DNA from: Candidatus Magasanikbacteria bacterium RIFCSPHIGHO2_02_FULL_48_18
GTDB taxonomy: Bacteria > Patescibacteriota > Patescibacteriia > Magasanikbacterales > UBA922
DNA length: 64,000 bases
Assembly (NCBI GenBank): GCA_001784285.1
Contig: MFQC01000009.1
Coordinates: forward strand, 8,828-72,827
Reading direction: 5' to 3'
Shown here: piece by piece, positions 4,861 through 50,505 of the stretch
How the letters are laid out: each line of letters starts with the position of its first letter
Position numbering within the stretch: the stretch's first letter is position 1
Position numbers and translations under genes: made by a program
Notes under the pieces: generated by a model
Told to the model about the DNA's origin: nothing
The model's database searches: none
The model's input: the letters and a program-made list of their open reading frames with translations, nothing else

Positions 4861-5308
4861 AAATTTATATTAACATAAAAATCTCCCCGGAGGAAGATCT
4901 TTACGTTGACACACAGTTTCAACCAGTAGAAATCTAGTTGCTGTACAAAAATACAATATCACATATCTGGAAACTTTGTCAAGCGAAAGCCCGATGGTTT
5001 ACCCGATTAAAATACAATAGAGTAATCCATCGTTCTTTCACAAAATGACAATTCTCTCCATAATGGACGAGAACTGTCTTACAAATACAGCGCGTGTGAG
5101 GCGGAAATTGCTCTGCTTCCGGAAATACCCGGGAGAGAGCCATGAAAGCCTAATAATATTGCGAACTCCTAAAAGCAACACGGCGCCTGCCGAATGGAGC
5201 GGTTGGATGTGTCATCCTGATCAGAATGACATACCCAACTGCTCCACGGACAAGGCGAAACCGTGGGACCACAATGCCGCATCCAGGCGGCGAGACAGGA
5301 GGTGCCAC

Positions 5309-6043
5309 ATGGCACGTTTCATCGCCCTCGCCGCCACCCTGGCGGCGTGCTTCTTCCTCGCGTGCGAGGAGGAAGGGACTGGTCCCACCGACGGGACCAC
5401 TGCGACGACAACGGGCTCCGCCGCAGGCGAGCCCACCACCCCCAGCAACGACGGCAACGACTGCACCGACAACAACCCGTGCACCGAGGAGACGTGCGAC
5501 GGCGACGTTTGCACGACCCATACTGAGTCGTGCAACGACAACGGATGCACCGAGGAATGGTGCAACCAATGGGGGTGCTCCAGTTGCACCAACTGGAGCA
5601 GTGGCGCCTCGGGGTGCACAGGCACCCCGGGCGGCCCTACTGCCCCCATTGTCGACCCCGACCCCCCTGGCGACGACCCCGTCCCCCCGCCGGAGGTCGA
5701 CTGCTCGGCCTGGACAACTCTCCTTTCCGGCACGTTCTACGAGCCGGAGCTGATCGGGGAGTTCGAAGTCCCTGGTTTTATTCAGTACCTCGAACCGGAC
5801 TTCGAGGGGATCGTCGGCGCGGGCTACGGCCTGTGCCGGTCGTCTGTTGATGACGCAATCGGCGTCGTCGACAACGTGTGGGGTGTGCTCGATGGAGCAG
5901 GAAAGAACATCGCCTGTGGACCGTTCCCGGGCGATAGTGTGCTCCACTTCGAGCCGATCGACAGCGACTGCATCAAAATCGGAGGGACTGCCCTTACAAA
6001 CTGGAGCATCCCCAACGATTTTTTGATTGCATGCCGACTGTGA
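5309..6043 (+). CDS. GC-rich lipoprotein that is Cys-, Asp- and Thr-rich, with CxxxNPCTxExC-type repeats.
   Basis: AGGAGG lies 6 nt upstream of ATG 5309. The signal peptide with lipobox reads MARFIALAATLAAC. The repeats read CTDNNPCTEETCDGDVCTTHTESCNDNGCTEEWC. Local GC is roughly 65% against roughly 48% in the flanks. The longer track ORF from 5045 is probably an N-terminal over-extension. Confidence 0.7.
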   Translation: MARFIALAATLAACFFLACEEEGTGPTDGTTATTTGSAAGEPTTPSNDGNDCTDNNPCTEETCDGDVCTTHTESCNDNGCTEEWCNQWGCSSCTNWSSGASGCTGTPGGPTAPIVDPDPPGDDPVPPPEVDCSAWTTLLSGTFYEPELIGEFEVPGFIQYLEPDFEGIVGAGYGLCRSSVDDAIGVVDNVWGVLDGAGKNIACGPFPGDSVLHFEPIDSDCIKIGGTALTNWSIPNDFLIACRL

Positions 6044-37200: not shown

Positions 37201-37455
37201 TTACGCGTTCAATTTTTCCATAAGTTTGCCTTGTGCCTGAAGTTCGGCAAGGTCGTCAAATCCGCCAATAAATTCTTCTCCAATAAAAATCATGGGGACC
37301 GTTTGCCACTTGTAGGTTTCCACAAGCCGATTTCTCAATGTTTGATCCGCTCCAACATCAATTTCTTCGTATGACACACCTAGCGCTTGGAACAGTTTTT
37401 TTGCCCGCATGCAATAGGGACAAGACATGGTGGTATAAATTTTGACCGGCTTCAT
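37201..37455 (-). CDS. grxC: Glutaredoxin.
   Basis: The CPYC active site is present. The protein is 84 aa and begins MKPVKIYTTMSCPYCMRAKKLF. Confidence 0.85.
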   Translation of the reverse strand: MKPVKIYTTMSCPYCMRAKKLFQALGVSYEEIDVGADQTLRNRLVETYKWQTVPMIFIGEEFIGGFDDLAELQAQGKLMEKLNA

Positions 37456-37868: not shown

Positions 37869-38129
37869 TTATTTGTACAATTCACTATGCGTGCCAATCG
37901 CAAAGAATCGGAGATCACCATTTTTTTCTTCTAGAAAAATCGTCCGCCAATCTCCTGTGACATTAATACTCACCTTACCCTCAAACGGACCATGGAGAGG
38001 ATGATAATGAAGAGATGGATGAGATCGATTCTCCAAAAATAATTTAAGACGTTCATCAAAACTCTCGTGAATATACTTAGGTGCTTTTTGATATTGTTTT
38101 AAAAATCTCTTTGCGTAAAAGATTGTCAT
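37869..38129 (-). CDS. Type II toxin, YafQ/RelE family.
   Basis: HPLHGPFEGKVSINVTGDWRTIFLEE...LRFFAIGTHSELYK aligns by eye to YafQ. A 4-nt overlap with the upstream antitoxin gene is present. Confidence 0.7.
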   Translation of the reverse strand: MTIFYAKRFLKQYQKAPKYIHESFDERLKLFLENRSHPSLHYHPLHGPFEGKVSINVTGDWRTIFLEEKNGDLRFFAIGTHSELYK

Positions 38130-38425
38130 ATTTTGATCTTCCCGTCGCTTACATCTTTTAAGAATGCCAGCGCCTCCTTAGGATCATCGAATGAATAATA
38201 ATCACCATTTTTATAATCTTCTTCCGATTCTTTCAGAGCTTTCCGTAAGTATGCGCTTGGCTTTTCTTCTCGTGCATCAAAAAAAATCTGTTTTGTGCGA
38301 ACAAGATCCTTGAGATAGGCATTCACAATACCGCTCAAACTCAACCCCAACTCATCCGCGGTTTTCATTGCGGCGTCTTTTAAGGAGGATTCAATTTTTA
38401 TGGTGATAACAGCTTGTTTTTTCAT
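38126..38425 (-). CDS. Type II antitoxin, DinJ/RelB family.
   Basis: The protein is 99 aa with a ribbon-helix-helix-like N-terminus. It sits upstream of and overlaps the toxin. Confidence 0.6.
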   Translation of the reverse strand: MKKQAVITIKIESSLKDAAMKTADELGLSLSGIVNAYLKDLVRTKQIFFDAREEKPSAYLRKALKESEEDYKNGDYYSFDDPKEALAFLKDVSDGKIKI

Positions 38426-38558: not shown

Positions 38559-40670
38559 TTAAGAGGCCTGAGCGACCCACAGAAGATCATCAATCTCTTC
38601 ACTCAAGAGAACGTCGCCATAGTCAACCGCCACTCTGGAAACTCCTTTTGTAGAGCTGAATCCAACAAAGGTGGTCACGGCATCCGTGATATTGGTTTTG
38701 GTCACTCTTCCAACCACTGCCCCGCTGTTATCATAGGCGGTAACGGTCGCAGTAACTTTTACGCCATACGCCGTGCCGTTGCCAAGGTACATCCCTGCGG
38801 CCTGAACAGGCTTTTGAAAGGTAATAATAAGCGGATCGTTGGCGCTGGTATTTGGATATGTCGCGTCGTTGGCAATGGAATATTCTCCGGACGCGGTCGC
38901 TTCATAACTTCTGTTATAGGGCGTAATATAGATGGCCTTCCCTTTTTGGGAAGAAAAGCCAACGCCCTTGGCGTCCCAATATTTTTTGGTAAGATCCGCG
39001 CCAAAGGTCATGTCTTCAAAATCAATTTTCGAAGGATTGCGCGCCAATAATGATTGAACAGAAATCTCTGTCAGCGTATTGGCATCACTCTCGTCATCCA
39101 CGACGAGTGGTTCCTCATCCGATGTGTCGTAAGAAAAATAGACATAATCTGACCATGGTCCTTTTGACCCGTCTTTTCCAACCGCGCGGACATGCACTTT
39201 ATAGTCATTGTCTCCGGTCAATGGCCCGGCGACAAAACTGGGATAGCTTGATACGTAGACAATTGGCTTTCCATACCAAGAATATGTTCCGTTTTCTTTG
39301 AGGCCCCATTTGAGGCCCCAATAGATTTCAATATCATAATAATCGATATTGGAAACCGATGTCCATGCCAATTCGGCCCTTCGCGGATAATTGGTCAACA
39401 CCGTATTTTGTGATGGTTTTGTAATGGTTGGCGTTCCAAGCGTCTGCGTCTCGACGGGAGCGGCATCCAAGGAAACACTAAACCCAGCCGCGTTGTTTGA
39501 TTCGTTGTGTTCTTCCATAAGGTCTGCCGGGTCAACCGCAATGCTGTAGGCCTGCGCGAGAGAGGTTCGGAAATAGAATGAACCGGCGAGTGACTTGCCC
39601 GCGTCCAGACCAGAGCGGGTGAGCAATCTGCGGCTTCCTTTTCCTTTTTCATTTTTCACCGTAAAGTAAATGCGTCCATCCGCGTCCGCCTCTCCCTTAT
39701 TTTTGACGGAAAAACTTACTTTGAACCGCTGGTACTTGGTGCCCCCGCTGGTATACGAGACTGCGCCTTTTTCAAGAGACACGCTTTCCACAACAAGATC
39801 CGGAAGTTCATCCGAGCCGGGTAATTCCGGGCTTTCTTCATCTTCAAAAATGGTATCCTCTGCATCATTCGTATTCGTAGTATCATTGGATTGGCTGTTG
39901 TCACCTGTTGTTGGCGGCTCCCACTTCACGTTATACATAGTGGAAGAAACACAAGCATACGTGTACTTTTTCATTCCAAGGTTATAACTATCAACATCTT
40001 TCACCCCATCAAGAAGATTGTACACTTGACCAAATTTTGTCACTTTGATTCCCCCCGGGATATTACGGCAATACTCGACCGGAACCGGATTCCACCCGCT
40101 TTCGGGCAAAACACTTTGCGATGGCGTCGCGCTGGTCGCTGAAGAAATGGTAATGGACGCCCCGGTCTTTTCCAAATTCACATCGCCTAAAATAGAACCC
40201 CAGTATCCGCCAGGGATGACCGTTACTTTGATATCATTTTCTTTTGCAATGCCACATCGTGTCTGTCCTGAGGCTGATTGTGCCACGTTAGCAAAAACGC
40301 GAAAATTGGCAGTTCGTCCTTCTGTAAATTGTTTATCGACCGCAAAGAAGATGCGTTCGGTATTATCCGTTAACTTTTGCCAGCTGGTTTGTCTATCAAG
40401 CAAAAGCGAATTCATGTATAAAGTTGCTTCGGTAAAATTATTCCACCCTTCGCACGTTACAGCAATTTGCTGAAGATTGGAATTAAGACTTGCCGTCAAT
40501 TGAAATGCGCTCACTAAGACATCCGGGTCTCCTGGACGAACGGTTTTGGCGTCGAGCGCGACGTGTCCAATCGTCATGGTTGAACCTCCGGCCTGAGCGG
40601 GGTTTGCAATGCCGACCATCGTACCCACGACAAAAACGAAGGTCAAGAATGAAAGAAATACTCTTTTCAT
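38559..40670 (-). CDS. Secreted protein with CARDB-like and FN3-like domains.
   Basis: A signal peptide, MKRVFLSFLTFVFVVGTMVGIANPAQA, is present. A CARDB-like stretch reads LPDLVVESVSLEKG...FSVKNKGEADA. The protein is 703 aa. Confidence 0.55.
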   Translation of the reverse strand: MKRVFLSFLTFVFVVGTMVGIANPAQAGGSTMTIGHVALDAKTVRPGDPDVLVSAFQLTASLNSNLQQIAVTCEGWNNFTEATLYMNSLLLDRQTSWQKLTDNTERIFFAVDKQFTEGRTANFRVFANVAQSASGQTRCGIAKENDIKVTVIPGGYWGSILGDVNLEKTGASITISSATSATPSQSVLPESGWNPVPVEYCRNIPGGIKVTKFGQVYNLLDGVKDVDSYNLGMKKYTYACVSSTMYNVKWEPPTTGDNSQSNDTTNTNDAEDTIFEDEESPELPGSDELPDLVVESVSLEKGAVSYTSGGTKYQRFKVSFSVKNKGEADADGRIYFTVKNEKGKGSRRLLTRSGLDAGKSLAGSFYFRTSLAQAYSIAVDPADLMEEHNESNNAAGFSVSLDAAPVETQTLGTPTITKPSQNTVLTNYPRRAELAWTSVSNIDYYDIEIYWGLKWGLKENGTYSWYGKPIVYVSSYPSFVAGPLTGDNDYKVHVRAVGKDGSKGPWSDYVYFSYDTSDEEPLVVDDESDANTLTEISVQSLLARNPSKIDFEDMTFGADLTKKYWDAKGVGFSSQKGKAIYITPYNRSYEATASGEYSIANDATYPNTSANDPLIITFQKPVQAAGMYLGNGTAYGVKVTATVTAYDNSGAVVGRVTKTNITDAVTTFVGFSSTKGVSRVAVDYGDVLLSEEIDDLLWVAQAS

Positions 40671-40830: not shown

Positions 40831-42537
40831 TCAATTCAAAATAACCGAGACTTCATTGCCAGTGTTTTTCTCCTTGAAAAGGAGATCTTTGGAACGCTCG
40901 ACACCGCAAGTGGGCAAAAGACCTGTGGCGCCAACATCAACCACGAGATGAATGTTACCGCTCTTTCCCTTTTCAAAATAAAATGATGGCGCAACACGCA
41001 AAAAAGAAGCTCCTAAACCGGCATCGTGCGTCACATTCCCTGAAACGACTGCCTCATCATGCGCAATTTGGAAAGCGGAAACTGCTCTCGCGGGCCGGCA
41101 TACGACCATCATGGTTTCCAAGGTCACATCACCTTCTGGCACAATGTCAAACGATGTAATCGTATATTGTTTTTCTCCCCTTCTTTCGGACATATCACGA
41201 TGTGTTTGGCGCACCACAACAGAGATATACTCCTGTGACTGCGGTTGCCATAACTCATTGCTTTGCGTGGGCAGGAGAGCATCACTTTCAAAAGTGGACA
41301 CTGGAGGAATGACCGTCTTTTCCGGAAGAATACCCACAGGAGACGACGTGACAAACTCCGCCCTATTATTGGAAGGATCATTGTCCGAGACTGATTCCGT
41401 TCGCTTCGTATCAATTTCAAAACGCACCTCTCGCCTTTCACCGGAGGAAACCGAAAATGATTGCATAAATTCCTGCGTGTATCCGTTTGGCGTGACAAAT
41501 ACAGAATAAGCGCCTTCTGCAACATCGGAAAAAAACATTCCATACAGCCCATTAAATCCTTTGTGGGCCACCAGCCGCTCTCCATTTTCCAAACGGATGT
41601 TGCTACCAGAAATTTCGTTGCCTTCGGTATCGACAACATGAATCCACACGCTGGCGTATACTTTTGGCTCCAGCGTCGCAAAACTCTCGAGACTCTGAAG
41701 AGAAGGAGAGGGTTCTGAGGGAATGGTCGTATCAGCGGCCGCCGTTGGGGCAGACAATATCTCTGGCTCGTTTGGCTCCAGGAACGCCACATCACTTGTT
41801 GTCGTGATAGCAACAGGAAAGGGAACGGACAATTGATACTGCGCGGCGCGCGCTCGCTGTTGTGTTTTCTCAACCGTATCAAAAACGGTTTGGATGTTGT
41901 TTGCGGTGTCTCTTGTATTTTTTTGATCTGCGGACGACACAACACTGCGATATGACTCAAGTGAAAAATCAAGATTGTCTGCGATTGCGACAATCGTTGC
42001 GGTGTCGCCTGCCTCTTCAAAAGAGGCAAGGGCTTGATTGACTTTTTCGCTGTGCTTTTGAATATATTTTTCAAGCTGTACGACAACCGCCGGATCGACC
42101 GCTCCCTGGGACGCCACCAGCGTTTGAATTTCGGTCAATCGCCGACGAACGCGTTCGACTTCCCATTGGGCTTTTTGTTTTTGGGATATTAACATACGGG
42201 AGCGAATTTCCTCGGTGACATTGACTTTGACCGGATAGAGCACATCGCCGGGAAGAGCATGCTCGGCGGCAGACGCCGTACCCGCAAAAAGAGACACAAT
42301 CAAAACACCCACCAATGCCCCATATGCAAAACGTTTCTGAAATACGACGTGCCAAAAAACAAAACCGCTCGGCTTTGTATTGTGCCCGGGCGCATCGCTT
42401 GCGGCTGGCTCATGCGCTTCTTCAAGAGGATGCATTTTCATAAACGAAAAAATTGCTTCGTCCATGGAAGCGCGTTCGTCTTGCGTCAACAGAATAGTTT
42501 CTCGAAATTGTTTTATTTTTTTTATGTTTTCCTCCAT
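40831..42537 (-). CDS. Putative anti-sigma factor, single-pass, with a C-terminal transthyretin or carboxypeptidase-regulatory-like domain.
   Basis: It lies immediately downstream of the ECF sigma gene with a 3-nt gap. A cytoplasmic N-terminus is followed by a transmembrane segment, LVGVLIVSLFAGTASA, and then a large extracytoplasmic region. Confidence 0.55.
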   Translation of the reverse strand: MEENIKKIKQFRETILLTQDERASMDEAIFSFMKMHPLEEAHEPAASDAPGHNTKPSGFVFWHVVFQKRFAYGALVGVLIVSLFAGTASAAEHALPGDVLYPVKVNVTEEIRSRMLISQKQKAQWEVERVRRRLTEIQTLVASQGAVDPAVVVQLEKYIQKHSEKVNQALASFEEAGDTATIVAIADNLDFSLESYRSVVSSADQKNTRDTANNIQTVFDTVEKTQQRARAAQYQLSVPFPVAITTTSDVAFLEPNEPEILSAPTAAADTTIPSEPSPSLQSLESFATLEPKVYASVWIHVVDTEGNEISGSNIRLENGERLVAHKGFNGLYGMFFSDVAEGAYSVFVTPNGYTQEFMQSFSVSSGERREVRFEIDTKRTESVSDNDPSNNRAEFVTSSPVGILPEKTVIPPVSTFESDALLPTQSNELWQPQSQEYISVVVRQTHRDMSERRGEKQYTITSFDIVPEGDVTLETMMVVCRPARAVSAFQIAHDEAVVSGNVTHDAGLGASFLRVAPSFYFEKGKSGNIHLVVDVGATGLLPTCGVERSKDLLFKEKNTGNEVSVILN

Positions 42538-42540
42538 ATA

Positions 42541-43038
42541 TTATGTGGTTATATTTTTTTGTACTTGTTTTATGCCACGATGGATCCGGACAGATACTAC
42601 ATTTTCCGACAACCCCATGATCGTTCCTATTTCTTTTGGCGAAAGTCCATCCATATACCGAAGAAACAAAATTTCACGATATTTTTCACCCAGCTGTTCC
42701 ATTTCGTGGATCACGGCATGAATATCGAGGGCATCCTGCTTGCTGAGTTCTTTGGATACGACGTCAAATCCTGATTCCATCATTTCATCAAGTGATTGTT
42801 CCTTTTTCTTTCGAGAATGATCAACCACAATATGGTAGGCTACTCGGTACAGGAAGGCTTTGATATGGGTGATGTCTTTGCCATCAACCATGTATTTCCA
42901 GACCTTCATAAATGCCTCTTGCGTGAGTTCCCGTGCCAATTCTCTATCGTAAACCCGAAAAAAGAAATAACGCAATATTTCCTCTGCATAGGCACGGTAT
43001 GCTTCCACATACTGATTTTCTCTTTCCTGGTTTGTCAT
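42541..43038 (-). CDS. RNA polymerase ECF-type sigma-70 factor.
   Basis: Region 2 (FMKVWKYM) and region 4 (LSPKEIGTIMGLSENVVSVRIHRG) are recognisable. The protein is 165 aa. Confidence 0.8.
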   Translation of the reverse strand: MTNQERENQYVEAYRAYAEEILRYFFFRVYDRELARELTQEAFMKVWKYMVDGKDITHIKAFLYRVAYHIVVDHSRKKKEQSLDEMMESGFDVVSKELSKQDALDIHAVIHEMEQLGEKYREILFLRYMDGLSPKEIGTIMGLSENVVSVRIHRGIKQVQKNITT

Positions 43039-43236
43039 AGTATGAGACTATCTTTTGACGAAAATCTTACAGATGGCCCTAAAACCATACCCTGGTTATA
43101 ATGATACGCGAGAAGTGAACATAAAAAATATAGCCTAAAAAAAACGAAAAAACAACCCTCACGGATGGCCATCTCGATATTTACTGTATTCGCAGACAAT
43201 GGAGACAATTCAGGCAAGCCTTGTGGAAAACTGGTA

Positions 43237-43266
43237 TTGTCAAAAAAAAACGATGCGCTATATACT
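43237..43266 (+). promoter_or_regulatory. Sigma70 promoter for the small Cys-rich peptide gene.
   Basis: TTGTCA is followed by a 16-18 nt spacer and TATATACT. Confidence 0.5.
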
Positions 43267-43316
43267 ATGTCTGTTGGATATTTCTTTCCACAAAATCATT
43301 CTTATCCATTTTCTTT

Positions 43317-43421
43317 ATGGCAGAATGTGTCACATGCGGCATGGAGGTCGAAGACGGCCAAACATGCCCAAAATGCGGCAGCTGTTACGACTGCGGCTGT
43401 GAATGCGACGGAGAGGTATAA
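43317..43421 (+). CDS. Small Cys-rich peptide of 34 aa, zinc-ribbon-like.
   Basis: The peptide is MAECVTCGMEVEDGQTCPKCGSCYDCGCECDGEV, with 8 Cys arranged as CxxC...CPxCGxC...CxCxC. It has its own promoter and is immediately followed by a terminator. The longer TTG-initiated track ORF from 43221 overlaps the promoter. Confidence 0.45.
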   Translation: MAECVTCGMEVEDGQTCPKCGSCYDCGCECDGEV

Positions 43422-43450
43422 AAGAAAAACGAGGACTTCCCTCGTTTTTT
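43422..43450. terminator. Bidirectional intrinsic terminator for the peptide gene and the convergent giant gene.
   Basis: AAAACGAGG-ACTTC-CCTCGTTTTTT has A and T runs on both sides. Confidence 0.7.
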
Positions 43451-43478
43451 GATTGGAATGAAAAAGTATTGTCTATTG

Positions 43479-46400
43479 TTATGCCCCCCTTCCAAAAAAA
43501 GAACGGAAGAATTCAAAAATTTTTGTCCAAAAATCAAAGGATTTTCGTTCCAAACTCACCGGAGCATGAATAATCGTGGATTCATCCAATATCATAATAC
43601 CCCCGTGATATGGCGCATATCCTGATTTTTCCGCGGCAATATAATATCGGCCGGCAGGAACATGGAACGAATACTCCCCTTTTTCATTGGTAAGAGTCGG
43701 ATTTTCTTGTCCATAGAGTTCTCCGGGCCAGAGAGCATACGCGCCATCCTCTTGCCATTGAAACAATTCCACGCGCGCATGAAACAGCGCTCTCCCCTTT
43801 TGGTCTGTGATCGTGCCGTTGGATATGCTTTGAACTTTTTTGGATACCTTCGTGCGCCCGCCATCTGTTTCGTTGATGGTCATGACCAATGTATATTCCC
43901 CTACCGCTCCTTCCGGAATATCCACGGTGGTTCTGTAGATATTGCCTTCCGAGACAGATGCAAAGGTGTAGGCCTTCAGCCAGCCATTTTGCGCGCTCTC
44001 TTCGTTTTGAACAATTTGCGCGGCATGAACCGACGCCCCAAAAAATCCGGCAAGCGCATGGAAGAGACGCTCACGAGCCGACAGGGATTCTTGTGTCTCT
44101 GCTGATTTTGGATACAGACGGGCGGTAATGCTATGGACCGGTTCTGACGGACGGATAAGAATATCAAAAGAATCGCCGCTTGCTACATCAATCGAGGAAA
44201 TTTGCTGTTTATAAAAACCAGGAGTTTGTTTTGACACGATCACCAAAAATGATTCCCGCGTTTGCACTTCTTTCAAAATATCCTGGACTTCTTTGGCAGT
44301 TACTTCTGAAACCACAAGATTTGGAGATGTTGAGGTGAATGATTGCGTATCTTGTGTATTGGGGAGAACAACACCCTCTCCTTCTTCCCCAACCGGCTGG
44401 TTGATTGGTTGTGTTGGTGTCATTTTTGCCGGCGGCGCATACACAAAAAACCATGGGGAGGGTGTGGATGTTCTCCCGAGACTGTCGGTTTGTGTCACGG
44501 ATATTGGATATGTCCCGGCCGGAATTTGATCAAGAATGGTCAATGAAAAAATTCCTTCAGGATCCACCGTAACCGAATATATCGTCTCGAGGATGGAGAC
44601 GGCAATCGTTGCTCCGGGGAAACCAGTCCCTTCGACCACGAACGGAAGTTTTGTAATGGTGGCGCCATTCTTCGGGGCAATAATAACAGGCGGCGCGAGC
44701 GGCCCCGTTTTTTCAAGAACGACCTGCGCGCTTTTCACAGCTGAAACAACGCCGCTCACGGTTCGCACTTTCGCATAGACGACATATATCCCTTCCATGT
44801 CAGGAAGATCAAAACCAATATCCTCACCGGTGTACGATTGCCAGCCGATACCTTGAAATCCAGAACTGAGAGAAAATGCAACTTCTACCGCATCGGGTGA
44901 AACCCCCTCAAGACGAAGCGTAATATGCGAATTGGTGGTTTGCGTTTTTGCGGCGCCATCGATAAGAAGTCCATCAAAGGCAATGGCCGATGGCAATGCC
45001 AACGGTCCAACAGGGAGAGAGGCGCCGGAAGTACTTCCGGAATCTGACGATACCGCAGTCTGGGAATAGACGCCAAAAAATGTCGTATGCACAGTATGAA
45101 CAATCAGATCATTTCCAGAATCAACCGAACACTCCCCGCTTCCTCCAACTCCGACATTTGTGGGATTGTTTTCGTCATCACAGACAACAGTAATGGGCGT
45201 GAGCGTGCCGCCAGACGATGCGGTATATCCGGCCACATAGCCGGCCTGTCCCGGGAAAGTTATTTTGACCGGATTTGTGAGCGAACACGTGGTATTGGGC
45301 GCGCCCACCTGCACCACTTTCTTGGCACTCATAGTGTAGCCGCTGACTGCTGGCAAGGCCACTATTGAGGCGTCAACCAATGTGGGAATTTGAAATTTGG
45401 TCCACGAAGAATCGGCACACGAAATAATAGTCCCCGACGGGATATTCATGTCAACATTATTTTCTTCGGTCGTTGAATTTTTATTGATGCTGATGGCCTG
45501 GCTTGTCGTGACAAACCCGGATTCCTTGACCCGCTTCATATTCAAATAAACCGGGGCGTTGTCGGCGACAGAAGACGCTATGGTGACACTTTGCAACAAT
45601 CCCGTTGTTTTGTTTGGAAGACTGCCGCCCAAAACAATTTCCGCCTGTGCCGCGTCTGTCACCGTCACTGCGTTATTTATGCGTGCGTCAAAAAATACCT
45701 GCGTGCTTTCCACAGCGGAATAATCACAGACTTGAGAAGACAACGCTGTCTCAACTGCATTTCCATTGCGCGCTTTTATTTGAAAACAATATTCTTCGTT
45801 CGGGTCAACGCCGGAAATGCCGACCGCACTCCAGGTGGAGGTTGCCTGCCACGTTTCACTTGCTCCGGAAAGGACCCCTTCAGCATTGGCCCACAAACCG
45901 GTCGACACCTCATACAGCGCATATTCTGTTGCAGAGGGATTGTTTATTGGAATAATGGAAAATGGCATGGTCGTCGAAGTCACTGAATCGGACGATATCT
46001 GCATGGATGGAACGTTCGCGAGCGTATACGTCGTTCCTGTCGCGGTTGTTGTCTGTATGCCGTCGCCGTTCACTCCATAGACTGTGTAGACGTAGGCGGT
46101 ATTCGGGGACAGATTGGTATTGGCCCACGAAGCGCCGCTCGTCACATCTTGCGTCGCCCGGACGCCATTTGAAAAATGCAAGAGCGATGAACCTGATCCC
46201 ATATTGGGGAACGAACCTTCTGCGGTCGCTGTGATACTGCTTGTGGTGACGGACGAAAAAGACACGCCTGTCGGGGCACCAAGCAATGTATACACGGTTG
46301 CCTCTGTCATGGCGGTTTCCGAATCGTCTTGATTTTTTGCTTTTACTTGAATCGTATAGGCCGTATTGGCGCTCAACCCGCTCTGTGTCCAGCTTGTTTC

Positions 46401-49115
46401 GGTGATCCACCCAGAATTATTGGCAGTATTATTTTTGTCCTGGGCAAAAAAGGCGCTCTGAGCATCGTTGTTCCAGCTCCACGCAATGCTCTCCGTGGTC
46501 GGGCCGCTTTGGGTCACGCCCGCGGGAGCGGTCGCCTCAGTAAAGGCGCTCGCTTGAGAAGAGGCAATGCCCCAGCCATTGGCATTATATGGCCGAACAT
46601 ACACGGTATATTGAGTATTGGGTTCAAGAGAACTATAGGTATACTGATTCTCGGTCGTGGTTGCAATAACCGAATCATCCATTGCGGCATATACCACATA
46701 GGAATCGGCTCCAAGGACAGCATCCCATGCCCACACAATGCCTGATGAATCCGTGGCAGAGGCCGTAAGGCCTGTTACCTGCGCAAGCGGCGTCGTTATT
46801 TGATTGGACATGACGACTTCTGAGGTATTGAGCGTCCCATCGGTATTATATGGAGAAAAACGATATTGATAGCACGTATTTGCGGCAAGATCGGAGGACA
46901 CTTGATAGGGAGAGGAAGGGTTGACCGAGGCGTTGTCATAGATCGTCGTATCAAAACCATTGCATCCGCTATCTTGTTCAAATTTTCCCCCGCTATGCGC
47001 GCCATCCACCCACGAAAGCTCAATTTGAATTGTGGATGACGTGGTATTGTTTTGCGCGGTGAGCGTGGCGGGGGGTGCACCCAAGGTAAAAAGACACGAA
47101 GCAGAGACGAGCGCTGTTTCCGTGTCATTGCCGTTTTTTGCTTTTGACGAAAAACAATACTGTGTATTGGGTGTGAGGCCGGCCACCGACGTTCCGCCCC
47201 ATGTGCTTGATGTGTTCCATACGGCAGTATTTGAGGAAAGGGTAAAATCGGCTGCAACGTATTGCGCCGTGCTACTTTCATACAGCGCGTAATTGGTGGC
47301 TTCAGGGTTGGCGCCGAGCTGACTTGTGGATGTGCTGAAAACAGATACGGTCATTGCGGTCGAACTCGCAGTCGCGACGCTCACCAAGCTCGGTGACATG
47401 GCCAGCGTATAGAGAGCGGCGGCGGTTGTGGTCGCCGTGGGAATCGCAGACTGATTTCTTGCAACGTATTCAAACGTGTACTCCGTATTTGGATAAAGAG
47501 AAATGAGAACAGGATTCCCAAGAATACTCAATTGATACCACGTCGGAGAAGAAGCATTGACAAGGTTGTCCCGGCTCAAATATTTGTCAAAAGTCGTTTC
47601 GTGAAAGGTAATGCCTGTCGTTGAAGGATTGCCGTTTGCGTCAACCGTTGCCTGAAGTCCTGGAACGACTTCGCCAAGATAGGTGGTTGTGACTGCGGCC
47701 ATCGTAAGAGGCCCAAGCGCATTGGCGAGTGTCGTTGTAGCATATGCCGTCGATGTGGCCGCTCCATCGCCGTTTACGGCATCCACTTTAAAGTAATACA
47801 CGGTATTGACAGAAAGGCCGGTAACATCTTTTGATTCGATGTCCGCATTTTCTGTAGACACGAGCGTATATGTTTGGTCGTCCAATGACCGCCAAACACG
47901 AAAATTATCTTCATTATCTGAATTATCGTTCCATGTAAGCGTCATGGCGGTTGGTGTGAGAGCGGTTCCACTCAACCCCGTTGGCTCTGCGGGAATATTG
48001 GCGCTCAAAGCGGCAAAAGATCCATTTCTTCCACTGTTTGCGCCCGCGCCCCCATTGACATCATACGAAGACCCTGTATCGGTGTAACTATCGGTATATT
48101 GCAATACCACGCATCCGCCGCCGCCGCCGCCGCCATGCGTATCGCCGCTTCCGCCGGTTGCAGTAATGGCACTTGAAAATGTAATGGTTGGAGCGCTTAT
48201 ACTAACACCCCCTCCCGCGCCTCCCCCGGCATCCCAAGAATCAGTACCGGCCTGTCCGCCGTTTCCGCCATCAGCCGAAATTGTTCCGGCGATGGTCGCA
48301 GTATTGCTTATACTGAAAACAACCAACCCGCCCCCAGCCCCGCCGGTCGTCGTGTTTCCCCCGCCGCCGCCGGATCCTAACGTTGATGGATTTGTTTCAT
48401 CGCAATATCCTGTGCCCCCGCTCGCACCGGAAAATGACGCCCCGCCCAATCCTTCGTGAGCACCGCCGCCGCCATTATCGGATGGTGCGCGGCTCACATC
48501 ATTGCGGCCGGGTCCGGACCCGTTTCCAACAGATTGACTGGCTCCGCCAGAAAATCCCTTTCCATCAACATTAATTGAACCGCCGGAATTGATTGCGAGG
48601 GTTACGGCCGAGAAAGAAACTGTATACGATGTTCCGGAAATGTTTGCCGTATGCGTTAACAGACCACCGCTTTGAATTGTTAATGTTCCGGAAATGGTTT
48701 GTTGTGTTGCGTTATCTTGCTGAAGAGTTCCATTGGCCGAAATAGTAATTGAACCCCCTGTTCCGATATCTTGCGTCAAAACGAGTGTCGCCGTATTGGT
48801 TCCCCCAATGGTGAGCGTAGAAAAATTGATGAACTTCCCTTCTGTCACGCACCCGGATGTGGTCACGGTGACATTGGCATCTATGGCCACAGCACTTGTA
48901 CTTGCCGGTTCGGTGTCTGATGACCAATTCAAGTCAGTACACCAGTCATCATCCGCGCCGCCGCCATCCCAGGTTGGTGTTGCGTTATTCCCCCCGCGTG
49001 CCAATACCAAAGAACTAAAAAAGGTGCCCTGTGTGGCACCAATCACAAAAATAATAAACCCAAAAAAGACACTCCCCATCAATGTAGCAAAAAAATTGAT
49101 CCTCCATCTTTGCAT
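43479..49115 (-). CDS. Giant surface protein of about 1878-1901 aa, with a Gly-rich beta-helix-like region, multiple fibronectin-type-III repeats and a C-terminal carboxypeptidase-regulatory-like domain.
   Basis: An N-terminal transmembrane or signal segment (MQRWRINFFATLMGSVFFGFIIFVIGAT) is present. Long GGxGG tracts occur. FN3-like repeats include LTWNDNSDNEDNFRVWRS...YYFKVDAVNGDG. The C-terminus contains GEYSFHVPAGRYYIAAEKSGY. The track start at 49184 overlaps the upstream gene. Confidence 0.75.
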   Translation of the reverse strand: MQRWRINFFATLMGSVFFGFIIFVIGATQGTFFSSLVLARGGNNATPTWDGGGADDDWCTDLNWSSDTEPASTSAVAIDANVTVTTSGCVTEGKFINFSTLTIGGTNTATLVLTQDIGTGGSITISANGTLQQDNATQQTISGTLTIQSGGLLTHTANISGTSYTVSFSAVTLAINSGGSINVDGKGFSGGASQSVGNGSGPGRNDVSRAPSDNGGGGAHEGLGGASFSGASGGTGYCDETNPSTLGSGGGGGNTTTGGAGGGLVVFSISNTATIAGTISADGGNGGQAGTDSWDAGGGAGGGVSISAPTITFSSAITATGGSGDTHGGGGGGGCVVLQYTDSYTDTGSSYDVNGGAGANSGRNGSFAALSANIPAEPTGLSGTALTPTAMTLTWNDNSDNEDNFRVWRSLDDQTYTLVSTENADIESKDVTGLSVNTVYYFKVDAVNGDGAATSTAYATTTLANALGPLTMAAVTTTYLGEVVPGLQATVDANGNPSTTGITFHETTFDKYLSRDNLVNASSPTWYQLSILGNPVLISLYPNTEYTFEYVARNQSAIPTATTTAAALYTLAMSPSLVSVATASSTAMTVSVFSTSTSQLGANPEATNYALYESSTAQYVAADFTLSSNTAVWNTSSTWGGTSVAGLTPNTQYCFSSKAKNGNDTETALVSASCLFTLGAPPATLTAQNNTTSSTIQIELSWVDGAHSGGKFEQDSGCNGFDTTIYDNASVNPSSPYQVSSDLAANTCYQYRFSPYNTDGTLNTSEVVMSNQITTPLAQVTGLTASATDSSGIVWAWDAVLGADSYVVYAAMDDSVIATTTENQYTYSSLEPNTQYTVYVRPYNANGWGIASSQASAFTEATAPAGVTQSGPTTESIAWSWNNDAQSAFFAQDKNNTANNSGWITETSWTQSGLSANTAYTIQVKAKNQDDSETAMTEATVYTLLGAPTGVSFSSVTTSSITATAEGSFPNMGSGSSLLHFSNGVRATQDVTSGASWANTNLSPNTAYVYTVYGVNGDGIQTTTATGTTYTLANVPSMQISSDSVTSTTMPFSIIPINNPSATEYALYEVSTGLWANAEGVLSGASETWQATSTWSAVGISGVDPNEEYCFQIKARNGNAVETALSSQVCDYSAVESTQVFFDARINNAVTVTDAAQAEIVLGGSLPNKTTGLLQSVTIASSVADNAPVYLNMKRVKESGFVTTSQAISINKNSTTEENNVDMNIPSGTIISCADSSWTKFQIPTLVDASIVALPAVSGYTMSAKKVVQVGAPNTTCSLTNPVKITFPGQAGYVAGYTASSGGTLTPITVVCDDENNPTNVGVGGSGECSVDSGNDLIVHTVHTTFFGVYSQTAVSSDSGSTSGASLPVGPLALPSAIAFDGLLIDGAAKTQTTNSHITLRLEGVSPDAVEVAFSLSSGFQGIGWQSYTGEDIGFDLPDMEGIYVVYAKVRTVSGVVSAVKSAQVVLEKTGPLAPPVIIAPKNGATITKLPFVVEGTGFPGATIAVSILETIYSVTVDPEGIFSLTILDQIPAGTYPISVTQTDSLGRTSTPSPWFFVYAPPAKMTPTQPINQPVGEEGEGVVLPNTQDTQSFTSTSPNLVVSEVTAKEVQDILKEVQTRESFLVIVSKQTPGFYKQQISSIDVASGDSFDILIRPSEPVHSITARLYPKSAETQESLSARERLFHALAGFFGASVHAAQIVQNEESAQNGWLKAYTFASVSEGNIYRTTVDIPEGAVGEYTLVMTINETDGGRTKVSKKVQSISNGTITDQKGRALFHARVELFQWQEDGAYALWPGELYGQENPTLTNEKGEYSFHVPAGRYYIAAEKSGYAPYHGGIMILDESTIIHAPVSLERKSFDFWTKIFEFFRSFFGRGA

Positions 49116-49143
49116 ACAATACGAAGAAAAAGAATATTCAATA

Positions 49144-50505
49144 CTATAGCATATTTTTTTGCTTTTGTCCAACACAATAAACACATAAAAGCATACTATT
49201 GAGCAGAAGCCCGCTATATTGTGTAAACATATAATGATCCAACGAGAGCACTATGAGATAAGGGATTAATATCCAACCCAAAAAAGAACGCGGCTGATTC
49301 TGGTAATAAAAAGAGAAGAGAAAAAATATCCCTGAAAGGGCCAATAAAGATACCCCCGCAAAACCAAACTCCGCCAAGAGCAAGAGAAAAACGTTGTGGA
49401 CAGGCTGATATTGCCAAATCGGCAAGAGAACACCAATACCCATGAGACTGGACGTGTAATTGCCGCCCCCAACCCCAATCCATGGATGCATTTTGACGAG
49501 GCTCATTGCTTGAGATATTTGGACAATACGGTCGGAAACCGCGTATGATTCATGACGGGAGGAAACAGAAAAACGCGTGCGGAGAATAGGAAAAAATGCA
49601 ACACCAAAAATCAATACGATGAAAACAACACCTGCCAAACCACACAATGACATTCGTGGCGGTGGCCGTTTCGTGTCCGCATTTCTGGAAAAAAGAAAAA
49701 AAGAGAAAAGAAAAGATACCGCCGCCAGCCACGCCGTGCGGCTAAAGGTAAAAAACAATGCCACGCCCTGAAGGAAAAGAAGAGACCAATACGCTTTTCT
49801 ATATTGCTGAGCCCGCTCGCCCAAAGACAAAAGTACCACTGTCATAAGCATGGCCACGACCAAATAGCCACCAAACATATTTGGATGAGAAAACGGACCA
49901 TGCGCCCGAAGCACTCGTCCGAGAGACTCGCTCGCGACAATCGATGTTCCCGCCTGGTCCAGGGCATGAAATGACAGCCCCAAGAGCGTAGAAGAAAACG
50001 TTGACTGCGCCGTAAATTGCCATATTCCTAAAAGCGCAGGGATGCCACTGCCGAGTGCAAACCATCGGGCAATATATGAAAACGAACAAGGACCGGCCCA
50101 CAACACGAAAAAAAATAAGAACGCTTCGACAATACGTATCCCTTGCTGAAACGCCAATGCCGAATCGAGCGCCCGCAATGAAGACATCAGCGCATAGAGC
50201 CAAAAAGAAAAAAACAACGCGACACATATCCGGTCAGGCGTCCAGGAAAATTGAAACCTTCCTTGGATTTTGGATTGCCGGATTTTTTGAACATACCACA
50301 CGCAAAACAGAACAATAATGCCCCACAGGAGAATCTCTGTCGCATACAGCCCTAAAACCCCATATTGGAACTTCATGCCGCCAATAATAGGCTCTCGATA
50401 CATCCAGATTGTTTGCCATGGAAAGAGAAAAAGAAAAAGAGCAATACCGAATTGCATCGCGGAAACCAAAGAAACATGTTTGATGGTGCGCATAAGTGAC
50501 ATCAT
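49144..50505 (-). CDS. O-antigen ligase / Wzy-family polymerase.
   Basis: About ten transmembrane helices are predicted. The Wzy_C-like loop GPFSHPNMFGGYL...FTFSRTAWLA is present. The start is taken at MMSLMRTIKHV; the track gives 50586. Confidence 0.65.
   Translation of the reverse strand: MMSLMRTIKHVSLVSAMQFGIALFLFLFPWQTIWMYREPIIGGMKFQYGVLGLYATEILLWGIIVLFCVWYVQKIRQSKIQGRFQFSWTPDRICVALFFSFWLYALMSSLRALDSALAFQQGIRIVEAFLFFFVLWAGPCSFSYIARWFALGSGIPALLGIWQFTAQSTFSSTLLGLSFHALDQAGTSIVASESLGRVLRAHGPFSHPNMFGGYLVVAMLMTVVLLSLGERAQQYRKAYWSLLFLQGVALFFTFSRTAWLAAVSFLFSFFLFSRNADTKRPPPRMSLCGLAGVVFIVLIFGVAFFPILRTRFSVSSRHESYAVSDRIVQISQAMSLVKMHPWIGVGGGNYTSSLMGIGVLLPIWQYQPVHNVFLLLLAEFGFAGVSLLALSGIFFLFSFYYQNQPRSFLGWILIPYLIVLSLDHYMFTQYSGLLLNSMLLCVYCVGQKQKNML

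What the first reader, a model, noticed from the sequence alone, without database searches (positions are those of the whole stretch)
43237..43452. Stand-alone 34-aa octa-cysteine peptide gene with its own promoter and terminator, divergent from an ECF sigma/anti-sigma pair.
The peptide MAECVTCGMEVEDGQTCPKCGSCYDCGCECDGEV is bracketed by a good sigma70 promoter and a strong bidirectional terminator. It lies 280 bp from the divergently transcribed ECF sigma (42541-43038) and anti-sigma (40831-42537) genes. It could be a zinc-ribbon micro-protein such as an anti-sigma modulator or metallochaperone-like peptide. It could also be a Cys-rich RiPP-like precursor, though no modifying enzyme is evident nearby. 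The adjacent secreted CARDB protein (38559-40670) may be part of the same regulon.
Basis: partly seen in the sequence, partly recalled or inferred. Interest (0 to 1): 0.55.

Follow-up and report, generated by a model that had tools for sequence, protein, structure and literature searches.

The report
Unannotated 34-residue cysteine-rich zinc-ribbon microprotein gene
A tiny gene for a 34-residue, eight-cysteine, metal-binding "zinc-ribbon" protein sits unannotated in a Candidatus Magasanikbacteria genome (public records annotate a different reading frame there); it resembles a widespread uncharacterised group of mini-proteins, and nothing links it to the neighbouring sigma factor.

Summary
It has a sigma-70-like site 50 nt upstream and a hairpin with a T6 run 4 nt downstream. 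Its cysteine layout is not expected by chance, and the ORF is a G+C island in A+T-rich spacer.

Public annotations miss it. They call a 95-aa ORF in another frame that has no relatives.

No diverged orthologue exists. All contigs of this population are 100% identical, and the next sigma-factor relatives are at most 57% identical and lack the peptide. Conservation of this exact gene therefore could not be tested.

A codon-pattern scan found many 27-50 aa mini-proteins with the same three-knuckle layout (CxxCG, 8-10 residues, CPxCG-x-CxxC) in metagenomes and viral contigs. An HMM built from them without the window sequence picks out only this peptide in the window (E 4.7e-6).

The most similar relatives are acidic 8-Cys proteins of Woesearchaeota. 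They are under purifying selection and always lie in flavoprotein reductase, ferredoxin, ZIP and rubrerythrin operons.

Best reading: a real, stand-alone, acidic metal-binding microprotein, probably with a redox or metal role.

A link to the ECF sigma factor and a RiPP role are not supported. Interest is modest.

The parts
43237..43266 (+). Sigma-70-like promoter candidate: -35 TTGTCA (43237-43242), 18-nt spacer, -10 TATACT (43261-43266). The implied transcript start is near 43273, giving an A+T-rich leader of about 44 nt with no Shine-Dalgarno sequence.
   Evidence: One search found the site (10 of 12 positions; 1 site against 3.3 expected in shuffles, so it is not significant on its own). 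One search gives the sequence. One search shows that Shine-Dalgarno sequences are absent genome-wide.
43317..43421 (+). Gene for the 34-aa microprotein MAECVTCGMEVEDGQTCPKCGSCYDCGCECDGEV. Knuckle 1 is C4/C7, knuckle 2 is C17/C20, knuckle 3 is C23/C26, and C28/C30 are extra cysteines. Net charge is -7 and pI about 4.05.
   Evidence: pattern not expected by chance; G+C island; family HMM built without the window sequence, E 4.7e-6, the only hit in the window; AlphaFold2 mean pLDDT 79.6; charge.
43425..43450 (.). Bidirectional intrinsic-terminator hairpin: an A-tract, the stem CGAGG/CCTCG extended by A-U pairs, and a T6 run. It is shared with the convergent 1901-aa gene that ends at 43479.
   Evidence: One search reported it on the minus strand. 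Searches show an 11-bp stem followed by U6 on the plus strand.
43165..43452 (+). The 95-aa ORF that public records annotate as 'hypothetical protein' (OGH79182.1 and others). It is in a different frame from the peptide and is probably a gene-caller artefact.
   Evidence: Its cluster holds only this population. It starts upstream of the promoter-like site and runs through the terminator hairpin. It has no family match. AlphaFold2 gives mean pLDDT 52.8 with no residue at or above 70 (single sequence, so a weak control).

Best explanation
The region 43237-43450 is a real, monocistronic, so far unannotated gene for a 34-residue acidic microprotein of the zinc-ribbon / C(P)XCG class. Inferred steps follow. 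C4, C7, C17 and C20 (CVTCG, then 8 residues, then CPKCG) form a rubredoxin-type tetrathiolate site for Zn(II) or Fe on a beta-hairpin. The directly following C23-x2-C26-G-C28-x-C30 supplies a second, C-terminal cysteine cluster, which could hold a second metal ion or act as a redox-active thiol group. The protein is too small and too acidic to be an enzyme or a nucleic-acid binder. It most likely works as a small metal-centre or redox module, that is a mini electron or thiol carrier or a metal buffer, that docks on a partner protein. This is by analogy with its closest relatives, the 8-Cys proteins of Woesearchaeota, which are encoded between a thioredoxin-reductase-like (or NADH:rubredoxin-oxidoreductase-like) flavoprotein and ferredoxin, a ZIP transporter and rubrerythrin. 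Its position next to the ECF sigma operon is adjacency, not a functional unit. Shown here: the ORF and its signals, the motif statistics, the resemblance to the family, purifying selection in the relatives, and their gene neighbourhood. Inferred: translation, metal binding, which cysteines pair, and the redox or metal role.
For: The ORF, promoter-like site and terminator are present. The cysteine pattern is unique in the window and absent from shuffles. The ORF is a G+C island that coincides exactly with the coding stretch. Weak matches go only to zinc-ribbon or rubredoxin-like models: Zn_Ribbon_1 at E 0.0039 and rubre_like_arch at E 0.028. A profile search of the PDB returns zinc ribbons, rubrerythrin, rubredoxin and HVO_2753-like proteins. 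Pattern scans found small stand-alone ORFs with the same three-knuckle layout: 10 viral contigs and at least 120 metagenome loci at loop length 9, and 3 and 4 viral hits at loop lengths 8 and 10. These ORFs share features that the pattern did not specify: 58% end 1-3 residues after the last Cys, 57% have Pro in knuckle 1, and they have a conserved hydrophobic residue and an acidic loop. An HMM built from them without the window sequence scores the peptide at E 4.7e-6, starting at its Met; the next-best segment of 1704 scores 0.069. The peptide is 53% identical to the 8-Cys protein P0143, with a pairwise E of 1e-6. That group shows 7-12 synonymous against 2-4 non-synonymous codon differences in 30 codons. 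In the contigs that carry the relevant side, the peptide gene sits between a Pyr_redox_2 flavoprotein (3 of 3) and ferredoxin plus ZIP (3 of 3), with rubrerythrin further downstream in 2. The 8-Cys variants, including this one, are all acidic, as rubredoxins and ferredoxins are. The AlphaFold2 model has mean pLDDT 79.6, with residues 1-30 at about 80-85.
Against: There is no diverged orthologue of this exact gene. All 9 other contigs of the population are identical across the spacer apart from one contig end, so selection on this ORF could not be measured. No expression data exist. The codon-usage score is neutral (-0.35) and does not separate this frame from the 95-aa frame. The exact peptide is absent from a collection of 15 billion proteins. 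A phmmer search of 1.84 billion representatives found only weak hits to long proteins with several zinc ribbons. The family was collected with a pattern derived from the peptide itself, and my first pattern had loop length 9 whereas the peptide has 8. The shared Cys, Gly and Pro residues are therefore shared by construction, and short Cys-rich modules can converge. The window has no flavoprotein-reductase, ferredoxin or ZIP neighbours. The promoter-like site is not statistically special. AlphaFold2 cannot tell whether C(P)XCG sites bind metal, and 5 of 14 Haloferax C(P)XCG proteins were zinc-free (PMC11241148).
Confidence: 0.6

Rival explanations
1. No protein is made from this frame. The ORF is a chance feature of the spacer, and the real product is either the annotated 95-aa protein or a non-coding RNA of about 180 nt that ends at the hairpin.
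For: Gene callers chose the 95-aa frame. The codon score does not favour the 34-aa frame. The putative transcript folds better than shuffles: z = -3.6 with the terminator and -2.7 without it. There is no conservation or expression evidence for this locus.
Against: The double-knuckle pattern was absent from all 100 simulations. The independent family HMM hits this frame and starts exactly at its Met. The 95-aa ORF has no relatives outside this population and no family match, spans the promoter-like site and the terminator, and models poorly. No Rfam family matches. The extra RNA stability is expected from TGC/GCA-rich Cys and Ala codons.
Confidence: 0.17
2. The peptide is a partner or target of the adjacent ECF sigma system, either as a zinc-dependent modulator of the sigma/anti-sigma pair or as a member of its regulon transcribed from the shared divergent spacer.
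For: The two genes are divergent with a 279-bp shared spacer. The sigma gene is followed by a single-pass membrane protein with the topology of an anti-sigma factor, and that pairing is kept in relatives. No sigma-70-type promoter was found for the sigma operon, so an ECF-type promoter may lie in the spacer.
Against: The closest sigma-DUF5667 loci (54-57% identity) have a different, co-directional upstream gene. The two whose DNA could be fetched contain no homologue of the peptide. Only one weak sigma-like match, in a low-complexity locus, was found in 722 kb around family members. The peptide's own upstream site is sigma-70-like, not ECF-like. The DUF5667 protein has no HxxxCxxC zinc motif that would call for a zinc partner.
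Confidence: 0.07
3. The peptide is a precursor of a ribosomally made, post-translationally modified peptide, for example one with SCIFF/ranthipeptide-like thioether cross-links.
For: It is a short Cys-rich peptide, and a sub-threshold match to 'TIGR04165 Cys-rich peptide' was seen for two relatives.
Against: No radical SAM, YcaO, lanthipeptide-synthetase, peptidase or export gene was found among the window's genes that were scanned; most of those are housekeeping genes. The first Cys is residue 4, so there is no leader region. The motif is the canonical CxxCG/CPxCG metal knuckle. Relatives are also fused to the C-terminus of 660-750-aa viral proteins, which precursors are not.
Confidence: 0.03
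4. It is a real zinc-ribbon microprotein, but one that acts as a structural adaptor on a large complex (ribosome, RNA polymerase or another protein), like HVO_2753, bL32, eL40 or Rpo12, and not as a redox or metal protein.
For: The best PDB sequence matches include eL40, bL32, Rpo12/RpoP, Nop10 and the HVO_2753-like protein seen in ribosome structures. The weak Foldseek matches are to uS14, Nop10 and LysW. Many loop-9 family members are basic.
Against: This peptide has net charge -7 and pI about 4, unlike RNA-binding zinc ribbons. Its nearest relatives sit in redox and metal operons, not translation operons. All of these matches are to the generic knuckle pair only.
Confidence: 0.13

Closest known systems
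C(P)XCG zinc-finger micro-proteins of haloarchaea (HVO_2753, HVO_0758, Brz)
   Same: They are stand-alone proteins under 70 aa built from CxxCG/CPxCG knuckles. They are often missed by annotation. HVO_2753-like and DUF1610 structures are among the PDB profile matches (PMC11241148, PMC10716476, PMC2253796).
   Different: Those proteins are 56-60 aa, with knuckle pairs separated by longer linkers. None has a third CxxC directly abutting the second knuckle or a CGCEC tail. No sequence match reaches a family threshold.
Pfam Zn_Ribbon_1 (PF13240) / Zn_ribbon_3 (PF13248), the generic zinc-ribbon domain
   Same: Residues 4-22 align to PF13240 positions 2-21. Relatives carry precomputed PF13240/PF13248 hits.
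   Different: The score is 17.4 bits against the 25-bit gathering cut-off, so the peptide is below threshold. These models cover four cysteines, not the six- or eight-Cys module.
Rubredoxin and the rubredoxin-like domain of rubrerythrin (NCBIfam NF033497 rubre_like_arch)
   Same: The knuckle signatures CxxCG and CPxCG are the same, and the protein is acidic. Relatives are encoded next to a flavoprotein reductase and rubrerythrin, the arrangement of the NADH:rubredoxin oxidoreductase, rubredoxin, rubrerythrin chain (from my own knowledge of that pathway).
   Different: The loop between the knuckles is 8 residues, against about 29 in rubredoxin and 12 in rubrerythrin. There is no aromatic core. 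The score is 14.1 bits against a cut-off of 32. Iron binding is untested.
Uncharacterised 8-Cys proteins of Woesearchaeota
   Same: They have eight cysteines, the same three knuckles, a Cys-x-Cys tail and an acidic C-terminus (GEVV/GEP against DGEV). Identity is 47-56%.
   Different: Their loop is 9 residues, not 8. The tail is CxxCCxC, not CxxCGCxC. They carry a 17-30-residue Lys/Glu-rich N-terminal extension. They sit in a conserved operon that the window lacks.
Six-Cys mini-proteins 'CPxCG-x9-CPxCG-x-CxxC-end' from metagenomes and uncultured viruses
   Same: The Met lies 2-4 residues before the first Cys, the three-knuckle core is the same, and the loop has Glu-Val followed by acidic residues. 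The family HMM scores the peptide at E 4.7e-6.
   Different: Most end 1-3 residues after the sixth Cys, are neutral to basic, and have a 9-residue loop. At least one sits in a phage-like gene block.
Bacterial metallothioneins (SmtA/BmtA, MymT) and SCIFF-type RiPP precursors
   Same: They are short and very Cys-rich (24% Cys here).
   Different: There is no Pfam or NCBIfam match to either. Metallothioneins lack paired CxxCG/CPxCG knuckles. SCIFF precursors have a leader and an adjacent radical SAM maturase, and both are absent here.

Membership tests
Zinc-ribbon / C(P)XCG micro-protein class | Two CxxC knuckles (typically CxxCG and CPxCG) separated by a short hairpin loop, in a protein under 70 aa | tested here: met
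   C4-V-T-C7-G, then 8 residues, then C17-P-K-C20-G; the protein is 34 aa.
Zinc-ribbon / C(P)XCG micro-protein class | A score above the curated threshold of a zinc-ribbon model (PF13240) | tested here: not met
   17.4 bits against a cut-off of 25, E 0.0039. This is usual for a 19-residue match, but it is formally below threshold.
Zinc-ribbon / C(P)XCG micro-protein class | Tetrahedral binding of Zn(II) by the four cysteines | not testable with these tools
   The AlphaFold2 model is compact (pLDDT 79.6), but AlphaFold2 cannot decide metal binding, and 5 of 14 tested Haloferax proteins were zinc-free (PMC11241148).
   An HMM built without the window sequence gives E 4.7e-6, is the only hit among 1704 segments, and its alignment starts at M1.
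   The loop is 8 residues and the tail is 8 residues with two more Cys. Loops of 8 and 10 do occur but are rarer: 3 and 4 viral hits against 10.
Acidic 8-Cys group of Woesearchaeota | Eight cysteines in three knuckles plus a Cys-x-Cys tail, with an acidic C-terminus | tested here: met
   53% identity, pairwise E 1e-6; charges are -7 against -3 and -4. The tail spacing differs by one Gly.
Acidic 8-Cys group of Woesearchaeota | A position between a Pyr_redox_2 flavoprotein and ferredoxin/ZIP/rubrerythrin genes | tested here: not met
   The relatives have this arrangement in all contigs that carry the relevant side. The window has none of these genes.
Anti-sigma factor or modulator of an ECF sigma factor (ZAS-type or other) | Co-transcription or conserved co-occurrence with the sigma gene | tested here: not met
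   The gene is divergent, not co-transcribed. It is absent from the sigma-DUF5667 loci of relatives. No association was seen in 722 kb of family loci.
Anti-sigma factor or modulator of an ECF sigma factor (ZAS-type or other) | The HxxxCxxC zinc motif of ZAS domains | tested here: not met
   The peptide contains no His.
RiPP precursor (SCIFF/ranthipeptide, lanthipeptide and similar) | An N-terminal leader followed by a Cys-rich core | tested here: not met
   The first Cys is at residue 4.
RiPP precursor (SCIFF/ranthipeptide, lanthipeptide and similar) | A maturase (radical SAM/SPASM, YcaO or LanM) and an export or peptidase gene nearby | tested here: not met
   Pfam annotation of nearly all large ORFs of the 64-kb window shows none.
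Rubredoxin | CxxCG and CPxCG knuckles about 29 residues apart around an aromatic core, with a PF00301 match | tested here: not met
   The knuckles are present, but the loop is 8 residues. There is no PF00301 hit, and only partial PDB profile matches to single rubredoxin knuckles.
Amino-acid leader peptide / transcription attenuator | A short ORF rich in one amino acid, followed by a terminator and then by a regulated gene on the same strand | tested here: not met
   After the terminator the next gene is convergent (43479-49184, -), so there is no downstream target.

The most novel reading that the evidence does not exclude
The peptide belongs to an unrecognised, widespread three-knuckle Cys6-Cys8 module. 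The module is found alone in Patescibacteria, in DPANN archaea and in uncultured phages, and fused to the C-terminus of 660-750-aa viral proteins. Under this reading it builds a new kind of compact binuclear or cluster metal site and serves as a minimal electron or thiol carrier between thioredoxin-reductase-like (or NADH:rubredoxin-oxidoreductase-like) flavoproteins and ferredoxin- or rubrerythrin-type acceptors. That would make it among the smallest redox proteins known, and one systematically missed by gene callers.
Probability: 0.15. Interest if true: 0.6.

Novelty: new variant of a known kind. Interest (0 to 1): 0.35.

Why it matters
There are three modest points.

1. Public annotations of this Magasanikbacteria population carry what is probably a wrong-frame 95-aa "hypothetical protein" where a 34-aa zinc-ribbon gene is the better reading. 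This is a concrete case of how micro-proteins are lost in genomes assembled from metagenomes.

2. Following the motif exposed a large, uncurated group of 27-50-aa three-knuckle cysteine proteins in metagenomes and viral contigs. It includes an acidic 8-Cys subgroup in DPANN archaea that is under purifying selection and is fixed in a flavoprotein reductase, ferredoxin, ZIP and rubrerythrin operon. That gives a testable hypothesis for a minimal redox or metal protein in organisms with very reduced genomes.

3. It removes a tempting but unsupported story, that the peptide modulates the ECF sigma factor or is a RiPP.

If the redox role were shown, the module would be of interest for minimal metalloprotein design and for the oxidative-stress physiology of ultra-small symbionts.

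Tried and rejected
1. Conservation in close relatives: nine further contigs of the same population (L001-L008, L016) are identical over the spacer except for a contig-end error, so they carry no information.

2. Synteny through the sigma factor:
- The genome-contig scan found only three distant loci.
- The protein search showed a gap from 99% to 57% identity.
- The loci of P0009, P0010 and P0014 keep the sigma-DUF5667 pair but lack the peptide.

3. Direct protein searches:
- The 66-aa stop-to-stop extension found nothing.
- phmmer on 1.84 billion representatives gave only weak hits to proteins with several zinc ribbons.
- The exact sequence is not in the 15-billion-protein collection.
- tblastn against cultured phages found nothing for the peptide and only knuckle-level hits for a family member.

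4. A looser DNA pattern without the first knuckle was swamped by TGC/GCC trinucleotide repeats.

5. My main pattern scans used a 9-residue loop by miscount; the peptide has 8. Loop lengths 8 and 10 could only be scanned in viral contigs.

6. Codon-usage scoring does not discriminate between frames, because eight rare Cys codons cancel the otherwise gene-like score.

8. NCBIfam 'ribbon_DG_selen' matched 14 of 15 relatives, but only over its C-terminal ribbon and at about 17 bits against a cut-off of 130. The in-frame stop in 'CP*CG' of L152, L176 and L245 is TAA, not TGA, so it is not selenocysteine.

9. Domain fusions: the large viral proteins that carry the module have no other recognisable domain, so they give no functional clue.

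10. The leader-peptide/attenuator idea was rejected because there is no downstream gene on the same strand. The LysW-like carrier idea was rejected because there is no C-terminal Glu and no LysX-type neighbour.

11. A search for an ECF-type promoter was not pursued statistically, because the expected chance matches exceed any signal in a single genome. Short repeats in the spacer were only noted.
Full report
**What is in the sequence**

The plus strand carries ATG at 43317 and TAA at 43419-43421. The ORF encodes MAECVTCGMEVEDGQTCPKCGSCYDCGCECDGEV, 34 aa with 8 Cys.

A sigma-70-like site, TTGTCA-18 nt-TATACT, lies at 43237-43266. That leaves an A+T-rich leader of about 44 nt.

Four nucleotides after the stop codon comes the hairpin AAAAACGAGG-ACTTC-CCTCGTTTTT (43425-43449), followed by a further T.

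The ATG is 279 bp from the start of a divergent ECF sigma gene (42541-43038, -). That gene is followed by a 568-aa single-pass membrane protein with a DUF5667 domain (40831-42537, -) and by a CARDB protein (38559-40670, -). On the other side a 1901-aa fibronectin-III-repeat protein converges and ends at 43479.

- The promoter-like site is not statistically special: 1 found against 3.3 expected in shuffles.
- The hairpin also terminates the convergent giant gene, so neither signal is specific evidence for the small gene.

The missing Shine-Dalgarno sequence carries no weight, because none of about 29 other genes in the window has one.

**Is it more than chance?**

- Cys-richness alone is not unusual. 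Fourteen six-frame segments of the window have at least 6 Cys in 34 residues, mostly in off-frames of real genes.
- The arrangement is unusual. CxxCG-x6-14-CxxCG occurs once in the six-frame translation and in none of 100 Markov simulations.
- The codon pattern for CxxCG-x8-CPxCG-x-CxxC occurs once in the window and in none of 100 shuffles.
- The ORF is a 54% G+C island between spacer segments of 36% and 33%.
- Codon-usage scoring is neutral and cannot choose between frames, because eight rare Cys codons offset the rest.

**Origin and existing annotation**

Exact-match look-ups place the window in Candidatus Magasanikbacteria (Patescibacteria/CPR) genomes assembled from aquifer metagenomes, GCA_001783045.1 and GCA_001783105.1. 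The scanned genes of the window are mostly housekeeping ones: KsgA, GroEL, a release factor, NusA, three aminoacyl-tRNA synthetases, YidC and RsmB.

Every public record calls a 95-aa "hypothetical protein" at 43165-43452 in another frame (OGH79182.1 and others). The 34-aa sequence is absent from a collection of 15 billion proteins.

The 95-aa ORF looks like an artefact for these reasons:
- It has no relatives outside this population.
- It has no family match.
- It begins upstream of the promoter-like site and reads through the terminator hairpin.
- It models poorly, with mean pLDDT 52.8 and no residue at or above 70. This used a single sequence, so it is a weak control.

**Conservation of this exact gene could not be tested**

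Nine further contigs of the population are identical across the spacer. Sigma-factor relatives drop from 99% straight to 57% identity.

In the closest diverged loci the sigma-DUF5667 pair is kept, but the upstream gene is different and co-directional. tblastn finds no homologue of the peptide in the loci whose DNA could be fetched. This already argues against a conserved sigma-peptide unit.

**Relatives found through the motif**

By miscount I first used a 9-residue loop; the peptide has 8. That scan returned 10 viral contigs and hit the 120-locus limit in metagenomes.

After removing trinucleotide-repeat artefacts, 67 distinct cores remained. Most were in tiny ORFs such as MECVRCGAPVPEGALRCPACGGCARCG, MIQCHRCGFEFVDDGRRCPKCGDCHRCG and MQECPYCGEVVNDDTRRCPRCGYCLTCVV. 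They share properties that the pattern did not demand:
- 58% end 1-3 residues after the sixth Cys, against about 13% expected for random sequence.
- 57% have Pro in the first knuckle.
- Position 8 of the core is hydrophobic.
- Positions 9-12 of the core are acidic and positions 13-14 are basic.

Loop lengths of 8 and 10 also occur, with 3 and 4 viral hits.

An HMM built from 38 of these proteins, without the window sequence, was run against all 1704 stop-to-stop segments of the window. It hits only the peptide (E 4.7e-6; the next best is 0.069), with a one-residue deletion in the loop, and the alignment starts at its Met.

A caveat applies. The shared Cys, Gly and Pro residues are there by construction, and such short modules can arise more than once.

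**The closest relatives**

A profile search of 5.8 billion proteins returned 87 hits, named only "zinc ribbon domain-containing protein" where they were named at all.

The most similar are 49-63-aa proteins of Woesearchaeota, for example ...RCPMCGKEFSEDNPKCPKCGRCSECCQCGEVV. They have eight Cys and an acidic end, and are 47-56% identical to the peptide, with a pairwise E of 1e-6 for P0143.

Four members differ by 7-12 synonymous against 2-4 non-synonymous codons in 30, with TGT/TGC toggling at the Cys codons. Proteins of this kind are therefore real and under constraint.

Four contigs were examined:
- In the three that extend upstream, the gene immediately follows a Pyr_redox_2 flavoprotein that resembles thioredoxin reductase.
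- In the three that extend downstream, it is followed by ferredoxin and a ZIP metal transporter, and in two of those rubrerythrin lies further downstream.

The same 8-Cys acidic module also ends 660-aa and 750-aa viral proteins that have no other recognisable domain.

The 8-Cys versions, including the window peptide (net charge -7, pI about 4), are acidic. The six-Cys minis are neutral to basic, and one of them lies in a phage-like gene block.

**Fold and known families**

- Pfam and NCBIfam give only sub-threshold generic matches: Zn_Ribbon_1 at 17.4 bits against a cut-off of 25, and rubre_like_arch at 14.1 against 32.
- A PDB profile search returns zinc ribbons of reverse gyrase, eL40, bL32, RadA, Rpo12, Nop10 and LysW, as well as rubrerythrin, rubredoxin and HVO_2753-like proteins. 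All match through the first two knuckles only.
- AlphaFold2 with a 15-sequence alignment gives a compact hairpin-type model, with mean pLDDT 79.6 and residues 1-30 at about 80-85.
- Foldseek finds nothing significant, and its weak hits are all small zinc modules.
- The literature on Haloferax C(P)XCG micro-proteins warns that such motifs may bind zinc, another metal or nothing, and that AlphaFold2 cannot tell which (PMC11241148).

**Interpretation**

I conclude, with about 0.75 confidence for this structural part, that 43317-43421 is a genuine, unannotated, monocistronic gene for an acidic three-knuckle zinc-ribbon microprotein.

- Inferred: C4, C7, C17 and C20 form a rubredoxin-type tetrathiolate metal site.
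- Inferred: C23, C26, C28 and C30 form a second cluster.

The function is inferred with about 0.3 confidence. The basis is the peptide's acidity, the rubredoxin-like knuckle signatures and the operon context of the nearest relatives. On that basis it would be a small metal-centre or redox module (an electron or thiol carrier, or a metal buffer) that docks on partner proteins.

**Alternatives that were checked**

- Sigma link: not supported, as set out above. In addition, 722 kb around family members holds only one weak sigma-like match, in a low-complexity locus.
- RiPP precursor: there is no leader and no maturase-type gene among the window's scanned genes.
- Leader peptide or attenuator: there is no downstream gene on the same strand.
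- Small RNA: the transcript folds better than shuffles (z = -3.6 and -2.7), but no Rfam family matches, and the protein-level evidence favours coding.

**Verdict**

This is a real but modest finding. It is a new variant within the known class of zinc-ribbon micro-proteins, missed and mis-framed by public annotation. By-products are an uncurated mini-protein group and a testable redox hypothesis in DPANN archaea. Interest is 0.35.

Noticed in passing
window 43165-43452 (+): GenBank records of this Magasanikbacteria population (OGH79182.1, OGH79498.1, OGH83156.1, HAZ28831.1) annotate a 95-aa hypothetical protein in a frame that overlaps the zinc-ribbon ORF. It has no relatives outside the population and is probably a gene-caller artefact.
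   Followed up: yes
L269:4080-7597, L271:4079-6745, L274:574-1676, L275:141-1230: There is a conserved operon in Woesearchaeota. It runs: thioredoxin-reductase-like flavoprotein, 8-Cys mini-protein, cytochrome-b5 or unknown protein, then (in L269 only) a rubredoxin-like protein and the ferredoxin-thioredoxin-reductase B subunit, then ferredoxin, a ZIP transporter and rubrerythrin. One mini-protein is mislabelled 'anaerobic ribonucleoside-triphosphate reductase' in NCBI.
   Followed up: partly
L136-L265 (for example L159:1101-1184, L186:5783-5866, L139:5742-5831): A large uncurated group of 27-50-aa ORFs of the form 'M-x1-3-CPxCG-x9-CPxCG-x-CxxC-x1-2-stop' occurs in metagenomes and uncultured viral contigs. 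No dedicated Pfam, NCBIfam or PHROG family covers it.
   Followed up: partly
L142:6358-8340 (-), L276:4685-6937 (-): Viral proteins of 660 and 750 aa are related to each other, have no recognisable domain, and end in the same acidic 8-Cys module (...CPDCGRCEDCCTCDDDD......CPDCGYCNECCECTNSPDDEGEEP). Each also has an N-terminal CxxCG...CP motif.
   Followed up: partly
L152, L176, L245 (the 121-codon frame ending ...CP*CGNIVVGSDSKCPRCGDCVLCE) against L195: There is an in-frame TAA inside the first knuckle in three contigs, where a fourth contig has TAT (Tyr). This is a nonsense allele or pseudogene, not selenocysteine.
   Followed up: yes
L165, L171, L175, L224, L231, L244, L251: These contigs carry long ORFs made of heptad repeats (CCPCCGN)n ending in ...GTGVPQAGQNG.LSS.TVPQFLHK. 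The contig names suggest a few related metagenomes. This is an odd Cys/Pro repeat protein.
   Followed up: no
window 5045-6043 (+): A 332-aa ORF contains Cys-rich repeats (CTDNNPCTEETCDGDVCTTHTESCNDNGCTEEWC) and has no Pfam match.
   Followed up: no
window 43221-43229 / 43285-43293, and 43129-43147 / 43235-43253: A perfect 9-bp inverted repeat, TTGTGGAAA/TTTCCACAA, brackets the promoter-like site. About 0.17 such pairs are expected by chance in 300 bp. A 19-nt direct repeat (84% identical) overlaps the -35 element. These could be operator sites or chance matches.
   Followed up: no
window 37869-38425 (-), 37201-37455 (-), 6327-15362 (-), 18286-24771 (-): The window holds a RelB/YafQ toxin-antitoxin pair, a glutaredoxin gene about 6 kb from the peptide, and two further giant ORFs of 3011 and 2161 aa, which are typical of CPR genomes.
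   Followed up: no
window 40831-43038 (-); L013-L015: The ECF sigma gene is followed in the relatives examined by a single-pass membrane protein with a DUF5667 domain and usually a CarboxypepD_reg-like domain. This is a conserved pair in Patescibacteria with anti-sigma-like topology but no zinc motif.
   Followed up: partly
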